Assembly (NCBI GenBank): GCA_000222855.1
Contig: GL995228.1
Location: 7,404 to 18,636, forward strand
Source: Succinivibrionaceae bacterium WG-1
GTDB lineage: Bacteria; Pseudomonadota; Gammaproteobacteria; Enterobacterales; Succinivibrionaceae
Direction: 5' to 3'
DNA: 11,233 nt
Below, one piece after another: positions 2,068 to 11,022 of this stretch. Made by a program: the position numbers and the translations under genes. The notes under the pieces are model-generated. The model was not told the origin of the DNA. It searched no databases and saw only the letters and a program-made list of their open reading frames with translations. Numbering within the stretch: the stretch's first letter is position 1; each line of letters starts with the position of its first letter.

Positions 2068-3342
2068 TTAGAGCTTGTTACCACATTGCGGACAGAATTT
2101 TGAAGCAATACCTTCAATTGTAAAACCACAATTTGGACAAGTTGCGCTTGAAGTTTGAGGTTTTGGTTTACCGCATTCAGTACAGAATTTACCGGTGTTT
2201 ACGGTGCCACATGCACAAGTCCATCCAGCAGGAGCTTCAGGCTTTTTATTACCACATTCAGTACAGAACTTACCTGTGTTTACAGTGCCACAAGCACAAG
2301 TCCAACCATTAGCTTGAGTTGGTTGTTGTTGCTGTTGCGCCATTCCAAATAAGCTTGCCGCATTCATGTTTCCGCCCATGCCTTGTGCAAGTCCCATCCC
2401 CATAAAGCCATTCATAGCACCATTGGCGTTTCCTGCAGCAGTCTTTAATGCATCAGCTTGAGCAGCAGCAGTTTGCGCAGCTGCTAACGCAGGATTTGCA
2501 AAAGCAGTAGCACGTTGTAAAGTCTTTAAGAGTTCTTGTTCTTCTTCTGGTAATGAAACTGAATTTAATGCAATTGAGAATACTGTAATACCACGTTTTG
2601 ACCACTTTTCATTAAGAACTTTATTCATGCTTTCACAAAGTTCATCAACGTGTTGCGGAATTGCATATGGTCTAATGTTTAAATTAGATAAAGCACCAAA
2701 TGCTTCATTTAAACCACCAACAAACTCTTGTTTTAATGTTGGAAGAATAGTTTCCTTTTCATATACATCTGCAACGTTACCACCTAATTCTCTATAAAAA
2801 GAAACAGGGTCTGTAATCTTAAATGTAAACATACCATTGCAACGTACAGACAAGTCCATATCAATATTTATATTTCTATCAACGATACGGAACGGAATCG
2901 GATTTACTGTACCAAACTTATTATCAACAATTTCTTTAATGTTAAAGTAGTACACACGTTGATCAGTTCCTGCAAGACCGCCCATCTTAAAACGTTCCCA
3001 CATTGTACCAAGAACATCTTTTACTTTTTGAACGTTTAATGGACCATAAAATACAGTAGGTTGAGCACCTTTATCATAGGTATAACGACCAGGTTCTGCA
3101 GCTACTTCTGTTACAATACCTTGGTCTACTACAATTGCACATTGACCATCTGCAACAACAATACCAGAACCATCAGATATTACATTATCACTTCCATCGG
3201 TATTTGAAGAACGGCTACTTGTATTCTTAAATCCCTTAACCATAAGAGTGTCATTATCTAATGAATTACAAGTAAAATACTCTTTCCATTGATCGGCTAA
3301 AGTACCGCTCATTGCACCAATTGCTGCTTTAATTAAACCCAT
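2068..3342 (-). CDS. SPFH/band-7 (stomatin-prohibitin-flotillin) family protein with a Gly/Ala/Gln-rich linker and three C-terminal zinc-ribbon modules (COG4260-like; resembles the flotillin-like YdjI associated with PspA in Bacillus).
   Basis: 424-aa ORF. The N-terminus MGLIKAAIGA... and the overall SPFH-like pattern are typical of COG4260 proteins. The C-terminus has WTCACGTVNTGKFCTECG twice plus CPNCG...CPQCG. A GGAG ribosome-binding site lies 7 nt before the ATG. Confidence 0.7.
   Translation of the reverse strand: MGLIKAAIGAMSGTLADQWKEYFTCNSLDNDTLMVKGFKNTSSRSSNTDGSDNVISDGSGIVVADGQCAIVVDQGIVTEVAAEPGRYTYDKGAQPTVFYGPLNVQKVKDVLGTMWERFKMGGLAGTDQRVYYFNIKEIVDNKFGTVNPIPFRIVDRNINIDMDLSVRCNGMFTFKITDPVSFYRELGGNVADVYEKETILPTLKQEFVGGLNEAFGALSNLNIRPYAIPQHVDELCESMNKVLNEKWSKRGITVFSIALNSVSLPEEEQELLKTLQRATAFANPALAAAQTAAAQADALKTAAGNANGAMNGFMGMGLAQGMGGNMNAASLFGMAQQQQQPTQANGWTCACGTVNTGKFCTECGNKKPEAPAGWTCACGTVNTGKFCTECGKPKPQTSSATCPNCGFTIEGIASKFCPQCGNKL
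2171..2309 (-). repeat. Intragenic tandem duplication with period 81 bp (27 codons), encoding two copies of the WTCACGTVNTGKFCTECG zinc-ribbon module.
   Basis: 2171-2228 and 2252-2309 are near-identical at the DNA level (ccgcattcagtacagaatttaccggtgtttacggtgccacatgcacaagtcca vs ccacattcagtacagaacttacctgtgtttacagtgccacaagcacaagtcca). Confidence 0.7.
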
Positions 3343-5580: not shown

Positions 5581-6165
5581 TTAATGTCTAGTTAATATAA
5601 GTTTGTTTAAATATTTAGAAAATAACTTGTAACAATTACCATAAAGCAAATATCCTTTATAACTCATAACAACTTGTCTGACATCTTCATACGACATTTT
5701 TCTTTCTGTGTAATTTTTGCTTAAAAATTTAAATTTGTTTTTAAATCTAGTTTTTGTTTGTCGCTTTACATATTTTAGGATCTTTCCTGTTTCTGTTAAA
5801 ATTATTCTAAATCCTAAAAATGTTACCCCGTTTTTTATTGGTATTATTTGAGTTTTACTGTTCAATAATAATTTTTCATCTTGAGATAACTTATTCTTCA
5901 ACAACGCTAAAGCTGTTTGAAGATACGATTTATCATGATGAATTATCAAAAAATCATCCATATATCTTGTATAATATTTAAATCCCATAGCTTCTTTTAA
6001 AAATCTATCCATGGAATCAAGATAATAAATGGCAAACCACTGACTTGTTTGATTCCCCATTGGTAAACCTTTATTAGGAGCAACTTCATAACTGTCAATT
6101 ATATCGTGAAGTATTTTTAATACTTTATTATCTAAATTTAACCTTTTAGTTTTTCTTTCAAAACA
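5581..6165 (-). CDS. DGR reverse transcriptase, C-terminal part (motifs 4-7: GLPMGNQTSQWFAIYYL, YTRYMDDFLII, thumb). The open frame extends upstream of the annotated Met to 6165, reading ...KTKRLNLDNKVLKILHDIIDSYEVAPNKGLPMGNQTSQ...
   Basis: The ORF track gives 5581-6060. My manual translation of 6061-6165 in the same frame is open and encodes RT-like sequence. YMDD is the catalytic YxDD box, and the SQ-containing motif 4 is diagnostic of DGR RTs rather than group II intron RTs (which have QG). Confidence 0.8.
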   Translation of the reverse strand, partial: CFERKTKRLNLDNKVLKILHDIIDSYEVAPNKGLPMGNQTSQWFAIYYLDSMDRFLKEAMGFKYYTRYMDDFLIIHHDKSYLQTALALLKNKLSQDEKLLLNSKTQIIPIKNGVTFLGFRIILTETGKILKYVKRQTKTRFKNKFKFLSKNYTERKMSYEDVRQVVMSYKGYLLYGNCYKLFSKYLNKLILTRH

Positions 6166-6635
6166 TCATGATCTATTGAATCAAAAAATTTTTTTATATC
6201 ACATTTAAGAAAATACCCATTATTTTGATATTTAGAATAAAATTTTCTTAAAAAATAAGTTAATCTATCTAATGAAAAATGTAACCCTTTTCCTATTCTA
6301 CAAGCACAGTTATCATAAATCAGTTTTTTATCAATCACAGGGGCTAAGATTTCATCACATAAACAATGTTGAACAACTCTATCTTGATAATATAAAGCAT
6401 GTATCAATCTTTTTTTAGGTTCAAAAACATAAAAAGAATAATAACCAGAAATTCTATACGTTCCGTTTAACAATTGTTCCCTAAGTCTTGTTAAATTAAA
6501 AGCTAATTGCATTTCAAAAGAAATTACTTCTATTTTATTATTCTTACTTCTCTTTGCTTTTCTATGAGCTTTATATAGATTTGAAAAATCTGTTAATTTA
6601 TCAAAATCAGATAAAGTAGTTGCAGCATTATTCAT
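6138..6635 (-). CDS. DGR reverse transcriptase, N-terminal part (NLYKAHRKAKRSK..., FEPKKRLIHALYYQDRVVQH, CRIGKG, YFLKCDIKKFFDSIDH = RT motifs 1-3). It ends at a stop that overlaps the downstream RT frame by 28 nt, so the RT gene is frameshifted.
   Basis: 165-aa ORF. Motif content and order match DGR RTs (Brt-like). The stop at 6138-6140 is in a different frame from the continuing RT frame (6165 to 5581). Confidence 0.8.
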   Translation of the reverse strand: MNNAATTLSDFDKLTDFSNLYKAHRKAKRSKNNKIEVISFEMQLAFNLTRLREQLLNGTYRISGYYSFYVFEPKKRLIHALYYQDRVVQHCLCDEILAPVIDKKLIYDNCACRIGKGLHFSLDRLTYFLRKFYSKYQNNGYFLKCDIKKFFDSIDHDVLKEKLKG

Positions 6636-6825
6636 AAAAAATGACTTTATAAGCGTAGTAGGCCGATAGGAGTATAAACTCTAGGTTATATAAACTAAAA
6701 AGCGTATATAACCCTACCGGCTAATATTTACCTTTTTATCTAGGAAGGAAATGATTCCTTTAGTCTCGACTCTGTTTAAATCTACTTAGAATTAAAATCA
6801 CGTTTTAGAGAACTTTGAAACTAAG
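6636..6825 (-). ncRNA. Candidate DGR spacer region between TR and RT, probably part of the structured DGR RNA that primes cDNA synthesis.
   Basis: Non-coding 190 nt lying directly between the TR 3' end and the RT start. Contains a short hairpin AAGGAA-atga-TTCCTT (6745-6760) and a direct repeat AAAGCGTA (6650-6657, 6700-6707). The functional assignment is by analogy to the Bordetella phage DGR only. Confidence 0.35.
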
Positions 6826-6939
6826 GCGGGACGAACACCAACATTTGTATTGTTAACGTTGTTGTTGTTGATGTTACCATCGTTGTTTACATTCTGTACA
6901 TTGTTATTGTTACTCCCAGGCGAGCGCAACCAATAATAA
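6826..6939 (-). repeat. DGR template repeat (TR), 114 bp. On the coding strand it encodes YYWLRSPGSNNNNVQNVNNDGNINNNNVNNTNVGVRPA, rich in AAC/AAT codons.
   Basis: Identical to 7477-7590 except at 16 positions. Every one is T on the + strand (A on the coding strand) in this copy, while the other copy has A, G or C. No indels (offset exactly 651 bp). Confidence 0.92.
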
Positions 6940-6987: not shown

Positions 6988-7380
6988 TTATTGCCATCTC
7001 CTTCTATCAGAATTCATCCATGCTCCTAATAAATTCTGACAGTCTGTTGTCAATTTAGCAATCTGACAATATTGCTTCATGAGTATAGCATTCATTGTCA
7101 ATGCAAGTTCTGCGTAATAAGCTAACAATTTTATATTTGTCATAGCTTCTCTTTGTAATGACAATCTAAAATTTAAAGCATTAAAATCTCCCCTATTTAC
7201 AAAAACATCATTTGCTTTATATATTTCCCCTATAATATCCAATGCTAAATTTTGCAATCTTGTAACAATTGTAAATCTAAATTGTTTTGGAGATTTTTGA
7301 GTAACTGTGATTATATAACTACAAAGTTCCTTAGCTTTAGTTACGATTGATAATTCTGATTGTGGTCTACAATTGTTCAT
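6988..7380 (-). CDS. avd: DGR accessory variability determinant (Avd-like four-helix-bundle protein).
   Basis: 130 aa, placed between VR and TR as in canonical DGRs. The pattern ...LSIVTKAKELCSYIITVTQKSPKQFRFTIVTRLQNLALDIIGEIYKAN... and the basic C-terminus LGAWMNSDRRRWQ resemble bAvd / S23-associated four-helix-bundle proteins. No obvious SD; the ATG directly follows the hairpin U-tract. Confidence 0.75.
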   Translation of the reverse strand: MNNCRPQSELSIVTKAKELCSYIITVTQKSPKQFRFTIVTRLQNLALDIIGEIYKANDVFVNRGDFNALNFRLSLQREAMTNIKLLAYYAELALTMNAILMKQYCQIAKLTTDCQNLLGAWMNSDRRRWQ

Positions 7381-7386
7381 AAAAAA

Positions 7387-7408
7387 TTTATCGCGCCTTA
7401 CGGCGCGA
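7387..7408 (-). terminator. GC-rich stem-loop between the target gene and avd: TCGCGCC (7391-7397) / GGCGCGA (7402-7408), loop TTAC. On the minus strand it is followed by UAAAUUUUUU (revcomp of 7381-7390). Candidate intrinsic terminator/attenuator and/or a DGR homing-associated hairpin.
   Basis: Read directly from the sequence. A 7-bp all-GC stem is very conspicuous in this ~27% GC context. It lies 69 nt 3' of the VR end and immediately 5' of the avd ATG. Confidence 0.55.
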
Positions 7409-7457: not shown

Positions 7458-10043
7458 TTACAGATTTATCCATAAAGCGGGACGAACACCAACAAGTGTA
7501 CTGAGAACGTAGTTGTAGTAGATGATACCATCGTTGTGGACACTCTGCACAAAGTTATTGTAACTCCCAGGCGAGCGCAACCAATAATAACCGTAACCAT
7601 TATCAGTATATAAATCTAATTCTGCTACATAATTTGAAAATTTTGCCCTTTTATCTTTCAAATATTTTTGTACTTCAGTATCATCTAATAACCAAATTTT
7701 ATCATTAGAAACATTATCATCTCTTGTAACAATTTTAGATTGCACAATTTGTTTTTGCTCTGTTTTAGAAAAGGAATTTTCTAAAAAAATATTATTTAAC
7801 CATTTCCTAATGCTTGAATCAGACCATTTATTACTACTAGTATTACCTCTAAAAGGTTTTACATCTAAAATAATATCACTTAAAAGTAAAGCTTTGCCAT
7901 CTTTTACATCTAAAACTCTCCACATTATTGGAGACTTTTTTTCTAAGCTTTCTTGCCAATATTGTCCAAATTTAACAACATCATTAATCTTAATATTTTT
8001 ATTTATACTATTACGAAAATCATTTGCCTGTAAGACATTTAGTGCTTCTAAAGAATCCTCATGAACTTCGTTAAATCGCTTATACAAAAATAATGATTTT
8101 TGTTTTAAATTTTGAGTATATTCATTTAAGCTATTTTTATCTTTAAAAACATACTCATCAACAATTATAAGATTATTAACTATATGCTTATACTCATTCA
8201 AATATTCTTTATCTTTATTATCTTGTGGATTTAATGACTTTATATCATTAAAACATTTTTGTTTAAACTCATATAGCTCTTCTAATCTATTGCTATTGTA
8301 TAATTTTGCAACATATTGATAAAACTCTTGATAACTTCTAAAACAATAATTTCCTTTATCAAAAACTAGTGTTGTCTTTATAACACTATCTAGTTGTTCA
8401 GATTTATTTCCAACAAAAATGTTCATTATATTCGTTAAATCATCTTTTACATTGCTAATAAAAGAAACATACGCAACAACATCTTTATCATATAATTCGT
8501 TACAAAAATTCAGAAAATCTTGTACTGATTTAAAAGATTTTTTGTTTATAACAAAATCTTCCCTACCTGTTAAAGCATAACCTAATCTTAAAGCTTGATA
8601 AGTATCATCAATATTTTGTTCCGATATTAATTTCTTTTGTAATTCAAGAACCTCAACATAATTTTGACTTAAATCCTTGTCTAAAACTTTATTTTTACAA
8701 TAATTTATCAAAAATGCATTAAGTAATTTTTTGGCACTTTTTACAATTTTATCTTGTCCTTTACTACCTAACTTGGCTTCGTTTATTAAAGCATTACCAT
8801 AATCGTTTAAGTCTGTAAAAACATATCCTTGCCAATAAATTTTTGTAAGAGTTGGTTCTAACTGATATAAAAGCTTTTGATATCTAAAATCGTCATTAGG
8901 ATTATTTTGTAGCACCTCCATTGCTTGTCTACAAAATTCTGTTTCTTTTTCTTTATTATTGATATCGTAATGTCTTTCGAGTAAGCCTCGACCTACTTCT
9001 TTTTTACCAAGTTCCCAATTTGTTCCTAAAGCATCAATTAAATCATAATTTGAAGTATATATTGTGCCATTAAACTTGTATGGAATTGAAGTTTGCTTTG
9101 AATTTGATGATGCACTTGCCAAACTTGAATTAAAATCCCCTGGAATTACTTGTTCTTCACCTTTTAACCATTTTTGAACTTCGGTATAAGTCCAACGTTT
9201 ATTAGGATTATTAGCTTCATTACGATTTGAAATATCTTTATAGGTTAAACCTAAAATTAAATTCTTTAAGTCTTGAGGAAAATCTACCGCAAATGGAATT
9301 TTTTGAATAGAAGCAAGACCAGCTAATTGCGAACTACTTATATTACTATTTTGAAAAGGAGTAAAACCTGTGAATAATTCATAAATCATTATGCCTAATG
9401 CATAATAATCAGTCTCTTTTGTAAAACTATTATTAAAGGCTTCTGGTGCTAAATAAGTTGGAGTCATACCTGTCTGAGTAAACACAACAGTATTACCATT
9501 GGTAACAGAACTTATACCAAAATCAATTATTACTAAATTGCCTTCATTATCTATCATTACATTGTCAGGTTTTAAATCCTTATGTAAGATATCTAATTGA
9601 TGAATATTATTTAATCCTGTTACTATTTGCGGAATAATTTGTTCTTTTAATTCTTGTTCAGAAAATGTGCCACAATTTTGCAAGTAACTTCTTAAAGAAC
9701 CATTAGTAAAATAAGGCATTACTACATATGTAAATCCCAATTCTTCTGAATAATAAGATACAGGAGCAACATACTGAGGTTTTGAATTAAAAATTTTTGC
9801 AATAACTTCAGCTTTTAAGGCGTCTTTACGACGATAAAGTTTAACAATTTGTTCTGAATTATCATTTATATCAATGGCTTTATATAAATCAGATTCACTT
9901 GAATACGTATTTAATTTCTCTGTAACATTAAATCGATTATTTAATGTTCTGCCTAAAAGATTAGGAATATCTGCATTATTTTGAGAGTTTGAATTTATTT
10001 TTGTAGCTAAATTTTTTAACTTATTTATTAACGTAGTAGCCAT
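7458..10043 (-). CDS. DGR target protein. N-terminal Hanks-type Ser/Thr protein kinase domain, roughly 400-aa alpha-helical-looking middle region, and C-terminal variable domain (probably C-type-lectin/FGE-like fold) carrying the VR. No signal peptide or TM segment, so predicted cytoplasmic.
   Basis: 861 aa. Kinase motifs are visible: VKLY (beta3 Lys), HKDLKPDN (catalytic loop, non-RD), IIDFGIS (DFG), TYLAPE (APE). The glycine-rich loop is degenerate. The C-terminal ~140 aa (KFGQYWQ...WLRSPG...VGVRPALWINL) ends with the VR. An AGGT ribosome-binding site lies 8 nt before the ATG. Confidence 0.8.
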   Translation of the reverse strand: MATTLINKLKNLATKINSNSQNNADIPNLLGRTLNNRFNVTEKLNTYSSESDLYKAIDINDNSEQIVKLYRRKDALKAEVIAKIFNSKPQYVAPVSYYSEELGFTYVVMPYFTNGSLRSYLQNCGTFSEQELKEQIIPQIVTGLNNIHQLDILHKDLKPDNVMIDNEGNLVIIDFGISSVTNGNTVVFTQTGMTPTYLAPEAFNNSFTKETDYYALGIMIYELFTGFTPFQNSNISSSQLAGLASIQKIPFAVDFPQDLKNLILGLTYKDISNRNEANNPNKRWTYTEVQKWLKGEEQVIPGDFNSSLASASSNSKQTSIPYKFNGTIYTSNYDLIDALGTNWELGKKEVGRGLLERHYDINNKEKETEFCRQAMEVLQNNPNDDFRYQKLLYQLEPTLTKIYWQGYVFTDLNDYGNALINEAKLGSKGQDKIVKSAKKLLNAFLINYCKNKVLDKDLSQNYVEVLELQKKLISEQNIDDTYQALRLGYALTGREDFVINKKSFKSVQDFLNFCNELYDKDVVAYVSFISNVKDDLTNIMNIFVGNKSEQLDSVIKTTLVFDKGNYCFRSYQEFYQYVAKLYNSNRLEELYEFKQKCFNDIKSLNPQDNKDKEYLNEYKHIVNNLIIVDEYVFKDKNSLNEYTQNLKQKSLFLYKRFNEVHEDSLEALNVLQANDFRNSINKNIKINDVVKFGQYWQESLEKKSPIMWRVLDVKDGKALLLSDIILDVKPFRGNTSSNKWSDSSIRKWLNNIFLENSFSKTEQKQIVQSKIVTRDDNVSNDKIWLLDDTEVQKYLKDKRAKFSNYVAELDLYTDNGYGYYWLRSPGSYNNFVQSVHNDGIIYYNYVLSTLVGVRPALWINL
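7477..7590 (-). repeat. DGR variable repeat (VR), the last 114 bp of the target gene (ends 17 nt before the stop). Encodes YYWLRSPGSYNNFVQSVHNDGIIYYNYVLSTLVGVRPA.
   Basis: Relative to the TR, 13 codons differ. Eleven are Asn-to-X changes (Y,F,S,H,I,Y,Y,Y,L,S,L) and two are silent third-position changes, all at TR adenines. The 3' 18 nt (coding strand TGTTGGTGTTCGTCCCGC) are GC-rich and identical in TR and VR, as expected for an IMH-like element. Confidence 0.92.
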
Positions 10044-10329: not shown

Positions 10330-11022
10330 TTAGAATTGGTAAATTAAACCACCTTGAATTTCAACAGAAAGAGTTTCTTTTTGTAATCTCATAACTCTTG
10401 TAGAAAGATCTAGTTTTATATTATCGGTAGCTTTATATTGAGCACCAATTGTTCCATGATATATAAATTTGGTTTCTCTATCAGAAAGAGATTCATTTTC
10501 AGCAAAGAATGAAGTCATATCTATCTCTTCTCCATCTTCTATCACTTTAAAACTTTTAATTTTACTTTTTTGCACAGAGAAGCCAAAACCACCACCAATA
10601 TATGGACTAAAAGCACTAGAATCCCACAAATGAACATAGGCATTTAATAATCCACCATAGTATTTATCTTCCCCACGACCTTTTACTTTTAACTTGTTAC
10701 CCTTCTTATCAATTTTAGCTTCAAATTTTTCTGTATATTCTCTTGCAAAGTGATAGAAAAATTCCGCTTCTGCACGGACCCCAAAAAAATCATTAATTGG
10801 AGTATGAACACCTGCAAATAAACTTACAATTGGAGCACTATAATGTTCAGCTGAAAAATTCTTTTTATATTTACTACCAGCGTATTCATCTTGAACAATA
10901 GCTACCCCTCCTTTGATACCAATGTAAGGTTTAAGATTAAAATCACCAGCATTGGCATTTTGAGCTAAAAACATCGCAGATGACAAAGTTGCCATTGTCA
11001 AAAGTTTGCTAATTTTTTTCAT
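10330..11022 (-). CDS. Outer-membrane beta-barrel protein (OmpA-like/OmpW/opacity-type small porin family). Signal peptide MKKISKLLTMATLSSAMFLAQNANA, C-terminal ...GGLIYQF.
   Basis: 230 aa. Cleavable signal peptide ending ANA, alternating hydrophobic beta-strand pattern with G/Y-rich turns, terminal aromatic F. A GGGGAT ribosome-binding site lies 6 nt before the ATG. Confidence 0.65.
   Translation of the reverse strand: MKKISKLLTMATLSSAMFLAQNANAGDFNLKPYIGIKGGVAIVQDEYAGSKYKKNFSAEHYSAPIVSLFAGVHTPINDFFGVRAEAEFFYHFAREYTEKFEAKIDKKGNKLKVKGRGEDKYYGGLLNAYVHLWDSSAFSPYIGGGFGFSVQKSKIKSFKVIEDGEEIDMTSFFAENESLSDRETKFIYHGTIGAQYKATDNIKLDLSTRVMRLQKETLSVEIQGGLIYQF

What the first reader, a model, noticed from the sequence alone, without database searches (positions are those of the whole stretch)
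7458..10043. DGR target is a cytoplasmic Ser/Thr kinase fused to the variable ligand-binding domain
The first ~300 aa of the target carry Hanks-kinase catalytic motifs (HKDLKPDN, DFG, APE, beta3 Lys). The protein has no signal peptide or transmembrane segment. Its C-terminal ~140 aa end in the hypervariable YYWLRSPG...VGVRPA segment. A DGR diversifying the sensor end of an intracellular eukaryotic-like kinase implies programmable signalling or ligand recognition rather than surface display. Kinase-fused DGR targets have so far been described mainly in cyanobacteria, so one in an AT-rich genome of this kind deserves attention. The degenerate glycine-rich loop and non-RD (HKD) catalytic loop leave open whether it is an active kinase or a pseudokinase scaffold.
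Basis: partly seen in the sequence, partly recalled or inferred. Interest (0 to 1): 0.85.

Follow-up and report, generated by a model that had tools for sequence, protein, structure and literature searches.

The report
DGR-diversified cytoplasmic kinase with lectin-fold sensor
A gut bacterium (probably a Succinivibrionaceae) uses a mutagenic retroelement to rewrite the ligand-binding tip of a soluble Ser/Thr kinase; this kind of system is already described in cyanobacteria and a purple sulfur bacterium, so it is a well-supported new example, not a new principle.

Summary
Window 10043..7458 (- strand) encodes an 861-aa protein with three modules:
- a Hanks-type kinase domain (Pfam Pkinase E=9.5e-39; CaMKII-like model);
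- a 350-aa repeat region that matches no Pfam family;

No signal peptide or transmembrane segment is detectable.

Its last 118 nt (VR, 7590..7473) match a template repeat (TR, 6939..6822) downstream of an Avd gene and upstream of a reverse transcriptase. Of 17 mismatches, 16 sit at TR adenines (P=6e-8).

Two near-identical assemblies (99.1-99.5% identical) carry the same TR but different VRs. They differ at 19 codons, so the element has been active recently.

The catalytic residues are invariant in 46 homologues. The glycine-rich loop is a family-specific SGEA motif (SSES here).

The split RT is a 1-nt homopolymer difference and is probably an assembly error.

The family is heavily expanded in Succinivibrionaceae: at least 17 loci in one genome, and only one of the 79 fetched loci has its own RT. 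Kinase-lectin-fold DGR targets are already published, so I file this as a new member of a known kind, with some distinctive features.

The parts
7458..10043 (-). DGR target gene: 861-aa soluble kinase / repeat region / DUF6273 (CLec-fold) protein
   Evidence: ORF. Pfam Pkinase and DUF6273. Identical to database protein UPI00025560E9. More than 500 homologues with the same architecture.
9144..9977 (-). Hanks-type Ser/Thr kinase domain (residues about 23-300). It is non-RD (HKD) and has an atypical G-loop (SSES; family motif SGEA).
   Evidence: Pfam E=9.5e-39. PDB profile hits to CDPK1, PKA and StkP at about 1e-28. Foldseek TM 0.82-0.85 to CaMKII and CaMKK2. K68, H154, D156, K158, N161, D174-F-G, A-P-E201, D212 and R274 are invariant in 46 homologues.
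8034..9086 (-). Middle region (residues about 320-670): five repeats of a beta-hairpin plus helices, with no Pfam family
   Evidence: AF2 secondary structure shows hairpins at 322-329, 402-409, 497-504, 559-568 and 626-633, with pLDDT mostly 85-95. No Pfam hit even at E<=10. The first repeats are shared with the Firmicutes kinases.
7461..7979 (-). C-terminal DUF6273 / C-type-lectin-fold domain (residues about 689-861)
7473..7590 (-). Variable region (VR). The variable codons are 828-850. The A-free 3' segment (about 7473-7494) is IMH-like and carries one C>T difference from the TR at 7476.
   Evidence: Repeat D1. Alignment. 16 of 17 mismatches at TR adenines, P=5.8e-8. 19 codons differ among three near-identical assemblies.
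7391..7408 (-). GC-rich hairpin (7-bp stem TCGCGCC/GGCGCGA, loop GTAA), 50 nt after the stop codon. It is a candidate DGR target-recognition hairpin and could also act as a terminator.
   Evidence: Sequence. Hairpin scan shows the same element in L001, and GCAA-loop equivalents after the VRs of L030 and L023. The role is inferred from published DGR hairpin/cruciform elements (my own knowledge, not tested).
6988..7380 (-). Avd accessory gene (130 aa)
   Evidence: Pfam bAvd E=2.3e-8, 34.9 bits, below the 40-bit cutoff. NCBIfam DivGenRetAVD E=2e-12, 47 bits, below the 80-bit cutoff. Its position between target and TR is canonical.
6822..6939 (-). Template repeat (TR): 41 adenines and 15 AAY codons when read in the VR frame
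   Evidence: Identical in the window and in L001; one search lists no window-vs-L082 difference at these coordinates.
5581..6635 (-). DGR reverse transcriptase. In the window it is split into two ORFs (6635..6138 and 6060..5581) because one A is missing from an A-run at about 6148.
   Evidence: RVT_1 hits on both halves. The motifs GNQTSQ and YMDD are visible in the sequence. It is intact (351 aa) in L001 and L082. The missing base is one of several homopolymer length differences.

Best explanation
This is a canonical chromosomal DGR cassette on the - strand, in the order target, Avd, TR, RT. Its target is a soluble and probably cytoplasmic protein.

Shown:
- The target has an N-terminal Hanks-type kinase, a 350-aa hairpin-helix repeat region and a C-terminal DUF6273 domain with a C-type-lectin fold.
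- TR and VR differ almost only at TR adenines.
- Closely related assemblies carry the same TR but different VRs.

Inferred mechanism:
- The RT, with Avd, copies the TR RNA into cDNA and misincorporates opposite adenines.
- The cDNA replaces the VR, guided by the A-free GC-rich 3' end and the downstream GC hairpin.
- This rewrites up to about 20 codons (residues 828-850). Fifteen of them are AAY codons, which gives on the order of 1e20 possible sequences in the last three strands and loops of the lectin-fold domain.

Inferred function:
- The variable domain binds an intracellular ligand.
- Binding either switches the kinase on or recruits the bound protein as its substrate.
- The cell lineage can therefore re-tune what this signalling enzyme responds to.

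The kinase is most likely catalytically competent: every catalytic residue is invariant across the family. It is non-RD, so it probably does not depend on activation-loop phosphorylation. It binds ATP with an unusual SGEA-type loop.

The protein belongs to a large paralogous family in Succinivibrionaceae. In that family the VR-like ends of many RT-less copies bear the adenine-biased signature of past or trans-acting DGR mutagenesis.
For: Architecture and folds.

DGR signature:
- 118-nt TR/VR pair.
- 16 of 17 mismatches at adenines, P=5.8e-8.
- Avd.
- RT with RVT_1 and the GxxxSQ/YMDD motifs.
- Hairpin.

Recent activity:
- L001 is 99.1% identical over 11.2 kb, and L082 is 99.5% identical over 6.5 kb.
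- The TR is unchanged: the L001 TR aligns identically, and no difference from L001 or L082 falls within 6822-6939.
- 25 of the 34 differences from L082 fall in the VR.
- 19 codons vary among the three assemblies, and L001 has a 9-nt VR deletion between AATGTA repeats.

Kinase integrity: K68, HxDxKPxN, DFG, APE, D212 and R274 are invariant in 46 homologues at 32-41% identity.

Cytoplasmic location: no hydrophobic segment reaches the TM threshold in the query or in most homologues, and the N-terminus is polar.

Family context:
- 392 relatives in species-representative genomes, concentrated in Succinimonas, Ruminobacter and UBA3769.
- Only L049 carries its own RT.
- The VR-like ends of paralogues differ from the L049 TR mainly at adenines: 19/22, 19/21 and 22/25 mismatches.

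Link to phospho-signalling partners:
- The same kinase chassis sits in a conserved cassette with FHA, PP2C, ClpB-like AAA+ and radical-SAM genes in 17 Firmicutes loci.
- In Ruminobacter amylophilus (L021) that cassette carries a kinase with a DUF6273 end.
Against: - No experiment shows phosphotransfer, ligand binding or localisation.
- The glycine-rich loop is not canonical. In this lineage it departs even from the family motif (S49 for G, S51 for A).
- There is no strictly conserved alphaC glutamate. Position 79 is D/E in 38 of 46 sequences, and position 82 is E/D in 33 of 46 but Ala here.
- In the window as given, the RT is frameshifted.
- No FHA or PP2C partner lies in the 22 kb around the gene.
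- I could not compute the surface exposure of the VR residues.
- The TM and signal-peptide test was a simple hydropathy scan.
Confidence: 0.65

Rival explanations
1. Pseudokinase scaffold. The kinase-like domain no longer transfers phosphate. It serves as an ATP-independent, or ATP-binding only, adaptor that couples the variable lectin-fold domain to partner proteins.
For: - The glycine-rich loop lacks all three canonical glycines here (SSES). The family keeps only one (SGEA).
- The Pfam Pkinase match starts only at profile position 53.
- There is no strictly conserved alphaC glutamate, and the beta3-to-alphaC spacing is short.
Against: - The beta3 Lys, the catalytic Asp and Asn, the DFG Asp, APE, the alphaF Asp and the subdomain XI Arg are all invariant in 46 homologues at 32-41% identity. 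By general knowledge of the kinase superfamily, pseudokinases usually lose at least one of these residues.
- S48, E50 and Y54 of the loop are also invariant. That points to a conserved alternative nucleotide-binding loop, not to decay.
- Relatives are encoded next to PP2C phosphatase and FHA genes, which implies real phosphorylation.
Confidence: 0.15
2. Frozen or decaying element in this particular genome. The RT frameshift is real, the VR no longer diversifies, and the present VR is simply the last variant that was fixed.
For: - In the window the RT is split at an A-run.
- Related loci L030 and L025 show that cassettes of this family do decay. They retain the target and Avd but have lost TR and RT.
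- Most paralogues have no RT of their own.
Against: - Relative to both L001 and L082, the window is one base short in four separate A/T homopolymers (6642, 6148, 5224, 5131).
- L082 has its own extra G, which splits its target gene. This is the pattern expected from homopolymer sequencing errors.
- The VR has no non-adenine drift apart from the IMH position.
- The TR is identical in the two other assemblies, and their RTs are intact.
Confidence: 0.12
3. Exported or surface-exposed binding protein. The protein leaves the cell by a route that needs no N-terminal signal, and the variable domain binds external ligands, as in classical DGR targets such as Mtd and TvpA.
For: - DUF6273 domains are otherwise typical of phage tail or receptor-binding proteins and of secreted proteins such as the Thomasclavelia IgA peptidase.
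- A DGR of the same RT clade (L083) diversifies a DUF6273 domain that follows a hydrophobic, TM-like segment in a canonical HRD kinase. That domain is presumably extracellular.
Against: - No signal peptide, lipobox or TM segment is seen in the window protein or in most of its 45 aligned homologues.
- An ATP-dependent kinase domain argues for a cytoplasmic site of action (general knowledge).
- The cassettes of relatives encode cytoplasmic signalling partners: FHA, PP2C and AAA+.
Confidence: 0.05

Closest known systems
Cyanobacterial DGR variable proteins with an N-terminal Ser/Thr kinase and a C-terminal CLec domain (Vallota-Eastman et al. 2020, PMC7517822)
   Same: - The logic is the same: a Hanks-type kinase is fused to a C-terminal CLec-fold domain that carries the VR.
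- Large intragenomic families of paralogues lie both inside and outside DGR loci, with varying VR/TR homology.
- The same hypotheses were proposed there (an autoinhibitory sensor, or a substrate selector).
   Different: - The lineage differs: gut or rumen Succinivibrionaceae, which are AT-rich Gammaproteobacteria.
- The variable domain scores as DUF6273 (PF19789), and no FGE-sulfatase hit was returned.
- The kinase subfamily is non-RD and has an SGEA loop.
- A 350-aa hairpin-helix repeat lies between the two domains.
- I did not test direct sequence homology to the cyanobacterial proteins.
DGR-diversified putative antigen sensors of Thiohalocapsa PB-PSB1 and other multicellular bacteria (Dore et al. 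2024, PMC10907252)
   Same: - Cytoplasmic multidomain conflict or signalling proteins, including Pkinase-containing ones, with a C-terminal CLec VR.
- Many targets per genome.
- Degraded redundant DGR components.
   Different: - Those targets are mostly STAND NTPase, CHAT or TIR proteins in aggregate-forming bacteria.
- Here there is a single kinase chassis, in bacteria not known to be multicellular.
- No effector domain is fused to it.
TvpA (Treponema denticola, 2Y3C), Mtd (Bordetella phage) and phage DUF6273 targets (tentaclins, PMC10743442)
   Same: - The TR is rich in AAY codons.
   Different: Those are surface or virion receptor-binding proteins. This one is fused to a kinase and has no export signal.
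Single-gene defence kinases and MADS kinase (PD-T4-6, mad6, Stk2-type)
   Same: The kinase domain gives its best PADLOC scores to mad6 (2.6e-42) and PD-T4-6. The idea of an intracellular kinase that senses an invader protein would fit a diversified sensor.
   Different: - The similarity is limited to the generic kinase domain.
- The NCBIfam MAD6 score is 99 bits against a cutoff of 460.
- No defence genes lie in the window.

Membership tests
Diversity-generating retroelement (DGR) | TR/VR repeat pair whose differences fall at template adenines | tested here: met
   118 nt; 16 of 17 mismatches at TR adenines, P=5.8e-8. The same rule holds for the two other VR alleles.
Diversity-generating retroelement (DGR) | Adjacent reverse transcriptase of DGR type (GxxxSQ motif, YxDD box) | tested here: met
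   RVT_1 on both halves. GNQTSQ and YMDD are read in the sequence. The RT is intact (351 aa) in L001 and L082, but frameshifted in the window as given. The library used has no DGR-specific RT model, so clade membership rests on the motif (my own knowledge).
Diversity-generating retroelement (DGR) | Accessory Avd protein | tested here: inconclusive
   bAvd E=2.3e-8, but 34.9 bits is below the 40-bit cutoff. DivGenRetAVD E=2e-12, but 47 bits is below the 80-bit cutoff. Its size (130 aa) and position are canonical.
Diversity-generating retroelement (DGR) | Evidence of actual diversification | tested here: met
   Three assemblies that are 99.1-99.5% identical carry an identical TR but differ at 19 VR codons.
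Hanks-type (eukaryotic-like) Ser/Thr protein kinase, Pfam PF00069 | Profile match above the curated threshold, and the kinase fold | tested here: met
   133.8 bits against a cutoff of 31.7. Foldseek TM 0.82-0.85 to CaMKII and CaMKK2.
Hanks-type (eukaryotic-like) Ser/Thr protein kinase, Pfam PF00069 | Catalytic residues: beta3 Lys, HxD...N, DFG, APE | tested here: met
   All are present, and all are invariant in 46 homologues.
Hanks-type (eukaryotic-like) Ser/Thr protein kinase, Pfam PF00069 | Canonical GxGxxG loop and conserved alphaC Glu | tested here: not met
   The loop is SSES here and SGEA in the family. No position in the alphaC helix carries a strictly conserved acidic residue.
Hanks-type (eukaryotic-like) Ser/Thr protein kinase, Pfam PF00069 | Phosphotransferase activity | not testable with these tools
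   This needs a biochemical assay.
DUF6273 (PF19789) / C-type-lectin-fold DGR variable domain | Profile match and CLec fold, with the VR at the C-terminal strands | tested here: met
   [not shown]
DUF6273 (PF19789) / C-type-lectin-fold DGR variable domain | Variable residues clustered on one solvent-exposed face | not testable with these tools
Only secondary structure and pLDDT were returned.
Cyanobacterial STK-CLec variable-protein family (PMC7517822) | Sequence homology of the CLec domain to that orthologue set | not tested
   No cyanobacterial member was fetched. Pfam assigns the window domain to DUF6273, and no FGE-sulfatase hit appeared at E<=0.01.
Known anti-phage kinases (MADS mad6, PD-T4-6, Mokosh MkoA) | Full-length match above the family threshold, plus the system's partner genes | tested here: not met
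   Only the kinase domain matches. NCBIfam MAD6 scores 99 bits against 460. No partner genes are in the window.

The most novel reading that the evidence does not exclude
The kinase-repeat-DUF6273 paralogues of Succinivibrionaceae would form an intracellular, DGR-generated repertoire of antigen receptors in unicellular gut bacteria. There are at least 17 loci in one genome. Only one of the 79 fetched loci has its own RT, and many carry adenine-biased VR scars and GC hairpins. Each variant lectin-fold tip would recognise a different invader (phage) protein or metabolite. Binding would activate a non-RD kinase that signals through an FHA / PP2C / ClpB-like AAA+ / radical-SAM cassette. That cassette is seen with the same kinase chassis in Ruminobacter amylophilus and in 17 Firmicutes loci, some of them next to PDC-S37/Hhe-like defence helicases. 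If true, this is an anticipatory immune system built on kinase signalling, and the non-RD state parallels eukaryotic pattern-recognition-receptor kinases.
Probability: 0.2. Interest if true: 0.8.

Novelty: new member of a known kind. Interest (0 to 1): 0.5.

Why it matters
Most characterised DGR targets are surface or virion adhesins. Cytoplasmic signalling enzymes with a hypervariable sensor raise a different question: what does a cell gain by randomising an internal receptor?

This locus has practical advantages for asking that question:
- It is compact.
- Natural near-identical assemblies differ essentially only in the VR, so the element is demonstrably live.
- Relatives occur in two named DSM strains, Succinimonas amylolytica DSM 2873 and Ruminobacter amylophilus DSM 1361, and the window organism itself may be the cultured wallaby isolate WG-1 (unconfirmed).
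- The kinase gives an easy biochemical read-out.

It also extends kinase-type DGR targets in three ways. It moves them to herbivore-gut Gammaproteobacteria. It moves them to the DUF6273 class of lectin-fold domains, which is otherwise known from phage tail proteins. And it links the kinase chassis to a conserved FHA/PP2C/AAA+ cassette that could be the downstream pathway.

Tried and rejected
1. The genome-contig scan with the single protein found nothing. Repeating it with the family alignment gave 392 relatives.
2. Exact-sequence look-up of the window target on contigs failed, although the protein is in the collection as P0121. The context came from the 96%-identical P0001 and from the Avd look-up.
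3. The afdb50 fold library was unavailable.
4. A Pfam search of the middle region at E<=10 gave only noise, so the repeat remains unassigned.
5. A 162-aa 'conserved neighbour' cluster in 39 loci turned out to be antisense ORFs inside the kinase genes, and I discarded it.
6. I considered a programmed -1 frameshift in the RT at A_AAA_G. I rejected it in favour of a homopolymer length error. The window is also one base short in three other A/T runs relative to both other assemblies, and both of those encode an uninterrupted RT.
7. The RT homologue search gave no named organisms, so it could not tell whether S. amylolytica DSM 2873 has an RT.
8. The PADLOC hits to defence kinases are generic kinase-domain similarity, not membership.
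9. Literature searches for DGR plus Succinivibrionaceae returned nothing.
10. The organism name could not be confirmed. The link to the tammar wallaby isolate WG-1 rests only on my recollection of the ADGC01 accession prefix.
Full report
**1. What is in the window**

All genes discussed lie on the - strand. In order they are:
- an OMP beta-barrel gene (11022..10330);
- the 861-aa target (10043..7458);
- a 130-aa Avd (7380..6988);
- a non-coding stretch holding the template repeat;
- a reverse transcriptase split into two ORFs (6635..6138 and 6060..5581);
- a Na:alanine symporter, an SPFH/zinc-ribbon protein and a zinc-ribbon protein.

GC content is 18-45% per 500-nt window and mostly about 23-36%.

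**2. Checking the observation**

- Kinase by sequence. Pfam gives Pkinase E=9.5e-39 for residues 85-278 and DUF6273 E=2.4e-23 for residues 715-860. A profile of 46 homologues hits solved kinases such as CDPK1, PKA and StkP at about 1e-28.
- Kinase by structure. The full-length AF2 model has mean pLDDT 84 and shows three modules joined by low-confidence linkers: kinase 23-300, repeat region 320-670 and C-terminal domain 689-860. Foldseek aligns the kinase module to CaMKII and CaMKK2 with TM 0.82-0.85 (normalised to the target) and rmsd 2.6-3.1 A.
- Viral matches. In the viral structure library the best matches are phage DUF6273 proteins. A published study reports these to be CLec-like DGR targets (PMC10743442).
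- Localisation. The most hydrophobic 19-residue window scores 1.34 and lies in the kinase core, and the N-terminus is polar. I see no export or membrane signal, with the caveat that this is a simple scan.

**3. The DGR**

- Repeat pair. The last 118 nt of the gene (7590..7473) repeat at 6939..6822 with 86% identity. Sixteen of the 17 mismatches are at TR adenines, and the TR has 41 A in 118 nt (P=5.8e-8). The remaining mismatch is a C>T near the 3' end, inside an A-free GC-rich stretch. That is the position expected for an IMH/IMH* difference.
- Coding potential. Read in the VR frame, the TR holds 15 AAY codons. By my calculation this gives on the order of 1e20 possible peptides.
- RT. It carries the GNQTSQ and YMDD motifs.
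- Hairpin. Fifty nucleotides after the stop codon there is a 7-bp GC stem with a GTAA loop (7408..7391). The same element is present in L001. GCAA-loop equivalents follow the VRs of two Succinimonas paralogues.

**4. Is it active?**

Two other assemblies carry the same locus.
- L001 (GCA_965351355.1) is 99.1% identical over 11.2 kb.
- L082 (ADGC01006584.1, a metagenome contig) is 99.5% identical over 6.5 kb.
- The TR of L001 aligns identically to the window TR, and no window-versus-L082 difference falls at TR coordinates.
- 25 of the 34 differences from L082 fall inside the VR.
- Across the three assemblies, 19 codons between residues 828 and 850 differ, and every difference is at a TR-adenine position.
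- L001 also lacks 9 nt of VR between two AATGTA repeats of the template. I read this as template slippage.

This is strong comparative evidence for recent mutagenic retrohoming in this population.

The RT split in the window comes from one missing A in an A-run near 6148. The window is also one base short in three other A/T runs (6642, 5224, 5131) relative to both other assemblies. L082 has its own extra G, which splits its target gene. I therefore consider the RT frameshift a probable homopolymer sequencing error, though real decay cannot be excluded.

**5. Is the kinase a kinase?**

In an alignment of 46 full-length homologues (32-41% identity, plus one at 96%), the following residues are invariant:
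- K68;
- H154, D156, K158, P159, N161;
- D174-F-G176;
- A199-P-E201;
- D212;
- R274.

The family is non-RD: HKD in 43 of 46 sequences.

The glycine-rich loop is replaced by a conserved S-G-E-A-D-(I/L)-Y motif. S48, E50 and Y54 are invariant. The window lineage alone has S49 and S51.

Acidic residues in the short alphaC helix (78-87) are common but not invariant.

The pattern suggests an unusual but selected nucleotide-binding loop, not a decayed pseudokinase. Only biochemistry can settle this.

**6. Family and context**

- Size of the family. More than 500 database proteins share the Pkinase + DUF6273 architecture, and all the named ones come from Succinimonas or Ruminobacter.
- Distribution. 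In species-representative genomes there are 392 relatives. Among only the best 79 loci, by my count:
  - Succinimonas sp. fecal_MAG_26 contributes 17;
  - UBA3769 contributes 12;
  - a Ruminobacter MAG contributes 7;
  - S. amylolytica DSM 2873 contributes 6;
  - R. amylophilus DSM 1361 contributes 3.
- Copies. Tandem copies occur, and some proteins carry two DUF6273 domains.
- RT linkage. Only one of these loci (L049) has its own Avd-TR-RT. Two others (L030, L025) keep Avd but have lost TR and RT.
- Adenine bias in paralogues. The VR-like ends of many paralogues differ from the L049 TR mainly at adenines: 18/18 for its own VR, then 19/22, 19/21, 22/25 and 23/27. This holds even across species. 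It means these ends were shaped by DGR mutagenesis. Some may still be trans targets, while others, with more non-adenine changes, look like fossils.
- Organism. It is probably a Succinivibrionaceae of a herbivore foregut. The window's Avd and neighbouring proteins occur on a 173.6-kb NCBI contig and in the ADGC01 metagenome. I could not confirm the name; WG-1 is my recollection only.

**7. Clues to the pathway**

- Firmicutes relatives. Relatives in Lachnospiraceae and other Firmicutes share the kinase and the first repeats, including the TGEADLY loop and HKDLKPSN, but lack DUF6273.
- Conserved cassette. In 17 loci these relatives head a cassette of:
  - a 430-aa protein with no Pfam match;
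  - a zinc-ribbon-FHA protein;
  - a radical-SAM activase-like protein;
  - a ClpB-like AAA+ ATPase;
  - a PP2C phosphatase.

  In R. amylophilus (L021) the same cassette carries a 1083-aa kinase that does end in DUF6273.
- Defence neighbours. Several of these loci abut a 2100-aa DUF4011 helicase that matches the PADLOC candidates PDC-S37 and Hhe.
- What this means. The chassis is tied to genuine phospho-signalling and, weakly, to conflict systems. No such partners lie within 22 kb of the window gene.
- A second fusion. RTs 55-57% identical to the window RT serve other DUF6273 targets. One (L083) is a canonical HRD kinase in which a hydrophobic, TM-like segment precedes the DUF6273 domain. Another (L086) is a GDSL lipase fusion. 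Kinase-DUF6273 fusions therefore arose at least twice, once apparently as a receptor kinase and once as a soluble protein.

**8. Comparison with what is known**

DGR targets combining a Ser/Thr kinase with a C-terminal CLec domain have been published:
- a GenBank-wide survey, class b12 (PMC5758913);
- cyanobacteria, with large paralogue families and the same functional hypotheses (PMC7517822);
- Thiohalocapsa (PMC10907252);
- a MAG survey (PMC11661182).

I found no paper linking DGRs with Succinivibrionaceae. The present case is therefore a new member of a known kind. It is distinguished by its lineage, the DUF6273-type variable domain, the atypical non-RD kinase subfamily, the unassigned repeat region and the scale of the paralogue expansion.

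**9. Verdict**

- Observation: confirmed.
- Interpretation: supported as an inference.
- Mechanism of diversification: well supported.
- Biological role (tunable intracellular sensing, possibly immune): plausible but unproven.
- Interest: moderate (0.5).

Noticed in passing
window 6148 (also 6642, 5224, 5131, 476, 241): The RT is split by a missing A in an A-run. Relative to L001, the window is one base short in six A/T homopolymers; L082, where it overlaps, confirms four of them (6642, 6148, 5224, 5131). L082 in turn has an extra G at 7713 that splits its own target gene. The pattern looks like homopolymer sequencing error and not like biology.
   Followed up: yes
L001:12456-12570 (VR), against window 7543-7551: The VR of the sister assembly lacks 9 nt that lie between two AATGTA direct repeats of the TR. 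This fits template slippage during cDNA synthesis or homing, and it gives an 858-aa instead of an 861-aa protein.
   Followed up: partly
window 8406-8679 and 7627-7849 (target residues 455-546 and 732-806): Between the window and L001, residues 1-454 are identical. There are 23 nonsynonymous and 7 synonymous codon differences, and they cluster in two patches outside the VR: mid-region repeats 3-4, and the lectin-fold domain upstream of the VR. L082 lacks these differences. This could be a recombination patch from a paralogue or local positive selection.
   Followed up: partly
window 2068-3342 (- strand); L083:2598-3848; L085:1132-2388: An SPFH (Band_7_1) protein with C-terminal zinc ribbons lies within a few kb of the DGR in the window. 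It also lies next to two DGRs of the same RT clade from other organisms; the L083 protein is 49.5% identical to the window protein. None of the RT-less kinase paralogue loci has it. It may be a recurrent neighbour of this DGR clade.
   Followed up: partly
L021:7932-17321; L056:7917-16373, and 16 other Firmicutes loci: There is a conserved six-gene cassette: kinase of this subfamily, a 430-575-aa protein with no Pfam match, a zinc-ribbon-FHA protein, a radical-SAM activase-like (Fer4_12) protein, a ClpB-like AAA_2 ATPase, and PP2C. In Ruminobacter amylophilus the kinase of this cassette ends in DUF6273. Some loci abut a PDC-S37/Hhe-like DUF4011 helicase.
   Followed up: partly
L030:9576-9953 and L025:11772-12131: These are remnant DGR cassettes. 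The kinase-DUF6273 target and Avd are retained, and so is the spacer upstream of the TR. The TR and RT are gone, and an AAA-ATPase_like/PDDEXK_9 gene follows. That ATPase/nuclease gene family occurs in 10 of the kinase loci, including L001:634-2238, which is just outside the window.
   Followed up: partly
L082:88-3156, against window 10225 onward: In the metagenome variant, homology to the window stops 182 nt upstream of the target start codon. A DDE transposase and a serine recombinase replace the OMP gene, so there is a strain-level rearrangement right next to the DGR.
   Followed up: no
L083:4205-8023: A contig with a Clostridia-type neighbour (SipL) carries a DGR whose RT is 57% identical to the window RT. 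Its target is a canonical HRD kinase with a GxGxxG loop, followed by a hydrophobic TM-like segment and a DUF6273 VR domain. It looks like a receptor kinase with a diversified ectodomain, formed by an independent kinase-DUF6273 fusion.
   Followed up: partly
window 8034-9086 (target residues 320-670): Five repeats of a short beta-hairpin plus helices are predicted with high confidence. The motif resembles PYxFxGxxYxSxxEL. There is no Pfam match. The N-terminal part (to about residue 520) is shared with the Firmicutes cassette kinases. Precomputed annotations on some relatives list PF27224, which is absent from the local Pfam copy.
   Followed up: partly
L022:7929-13138; L003:224-10670: Some family members carry two DUF6273 domains, each with a VR-like end, and are followed by a stand-alone DUF6273 gene. 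Some loci hold up to three kinase paralogues in tandem.
   Followed up: no
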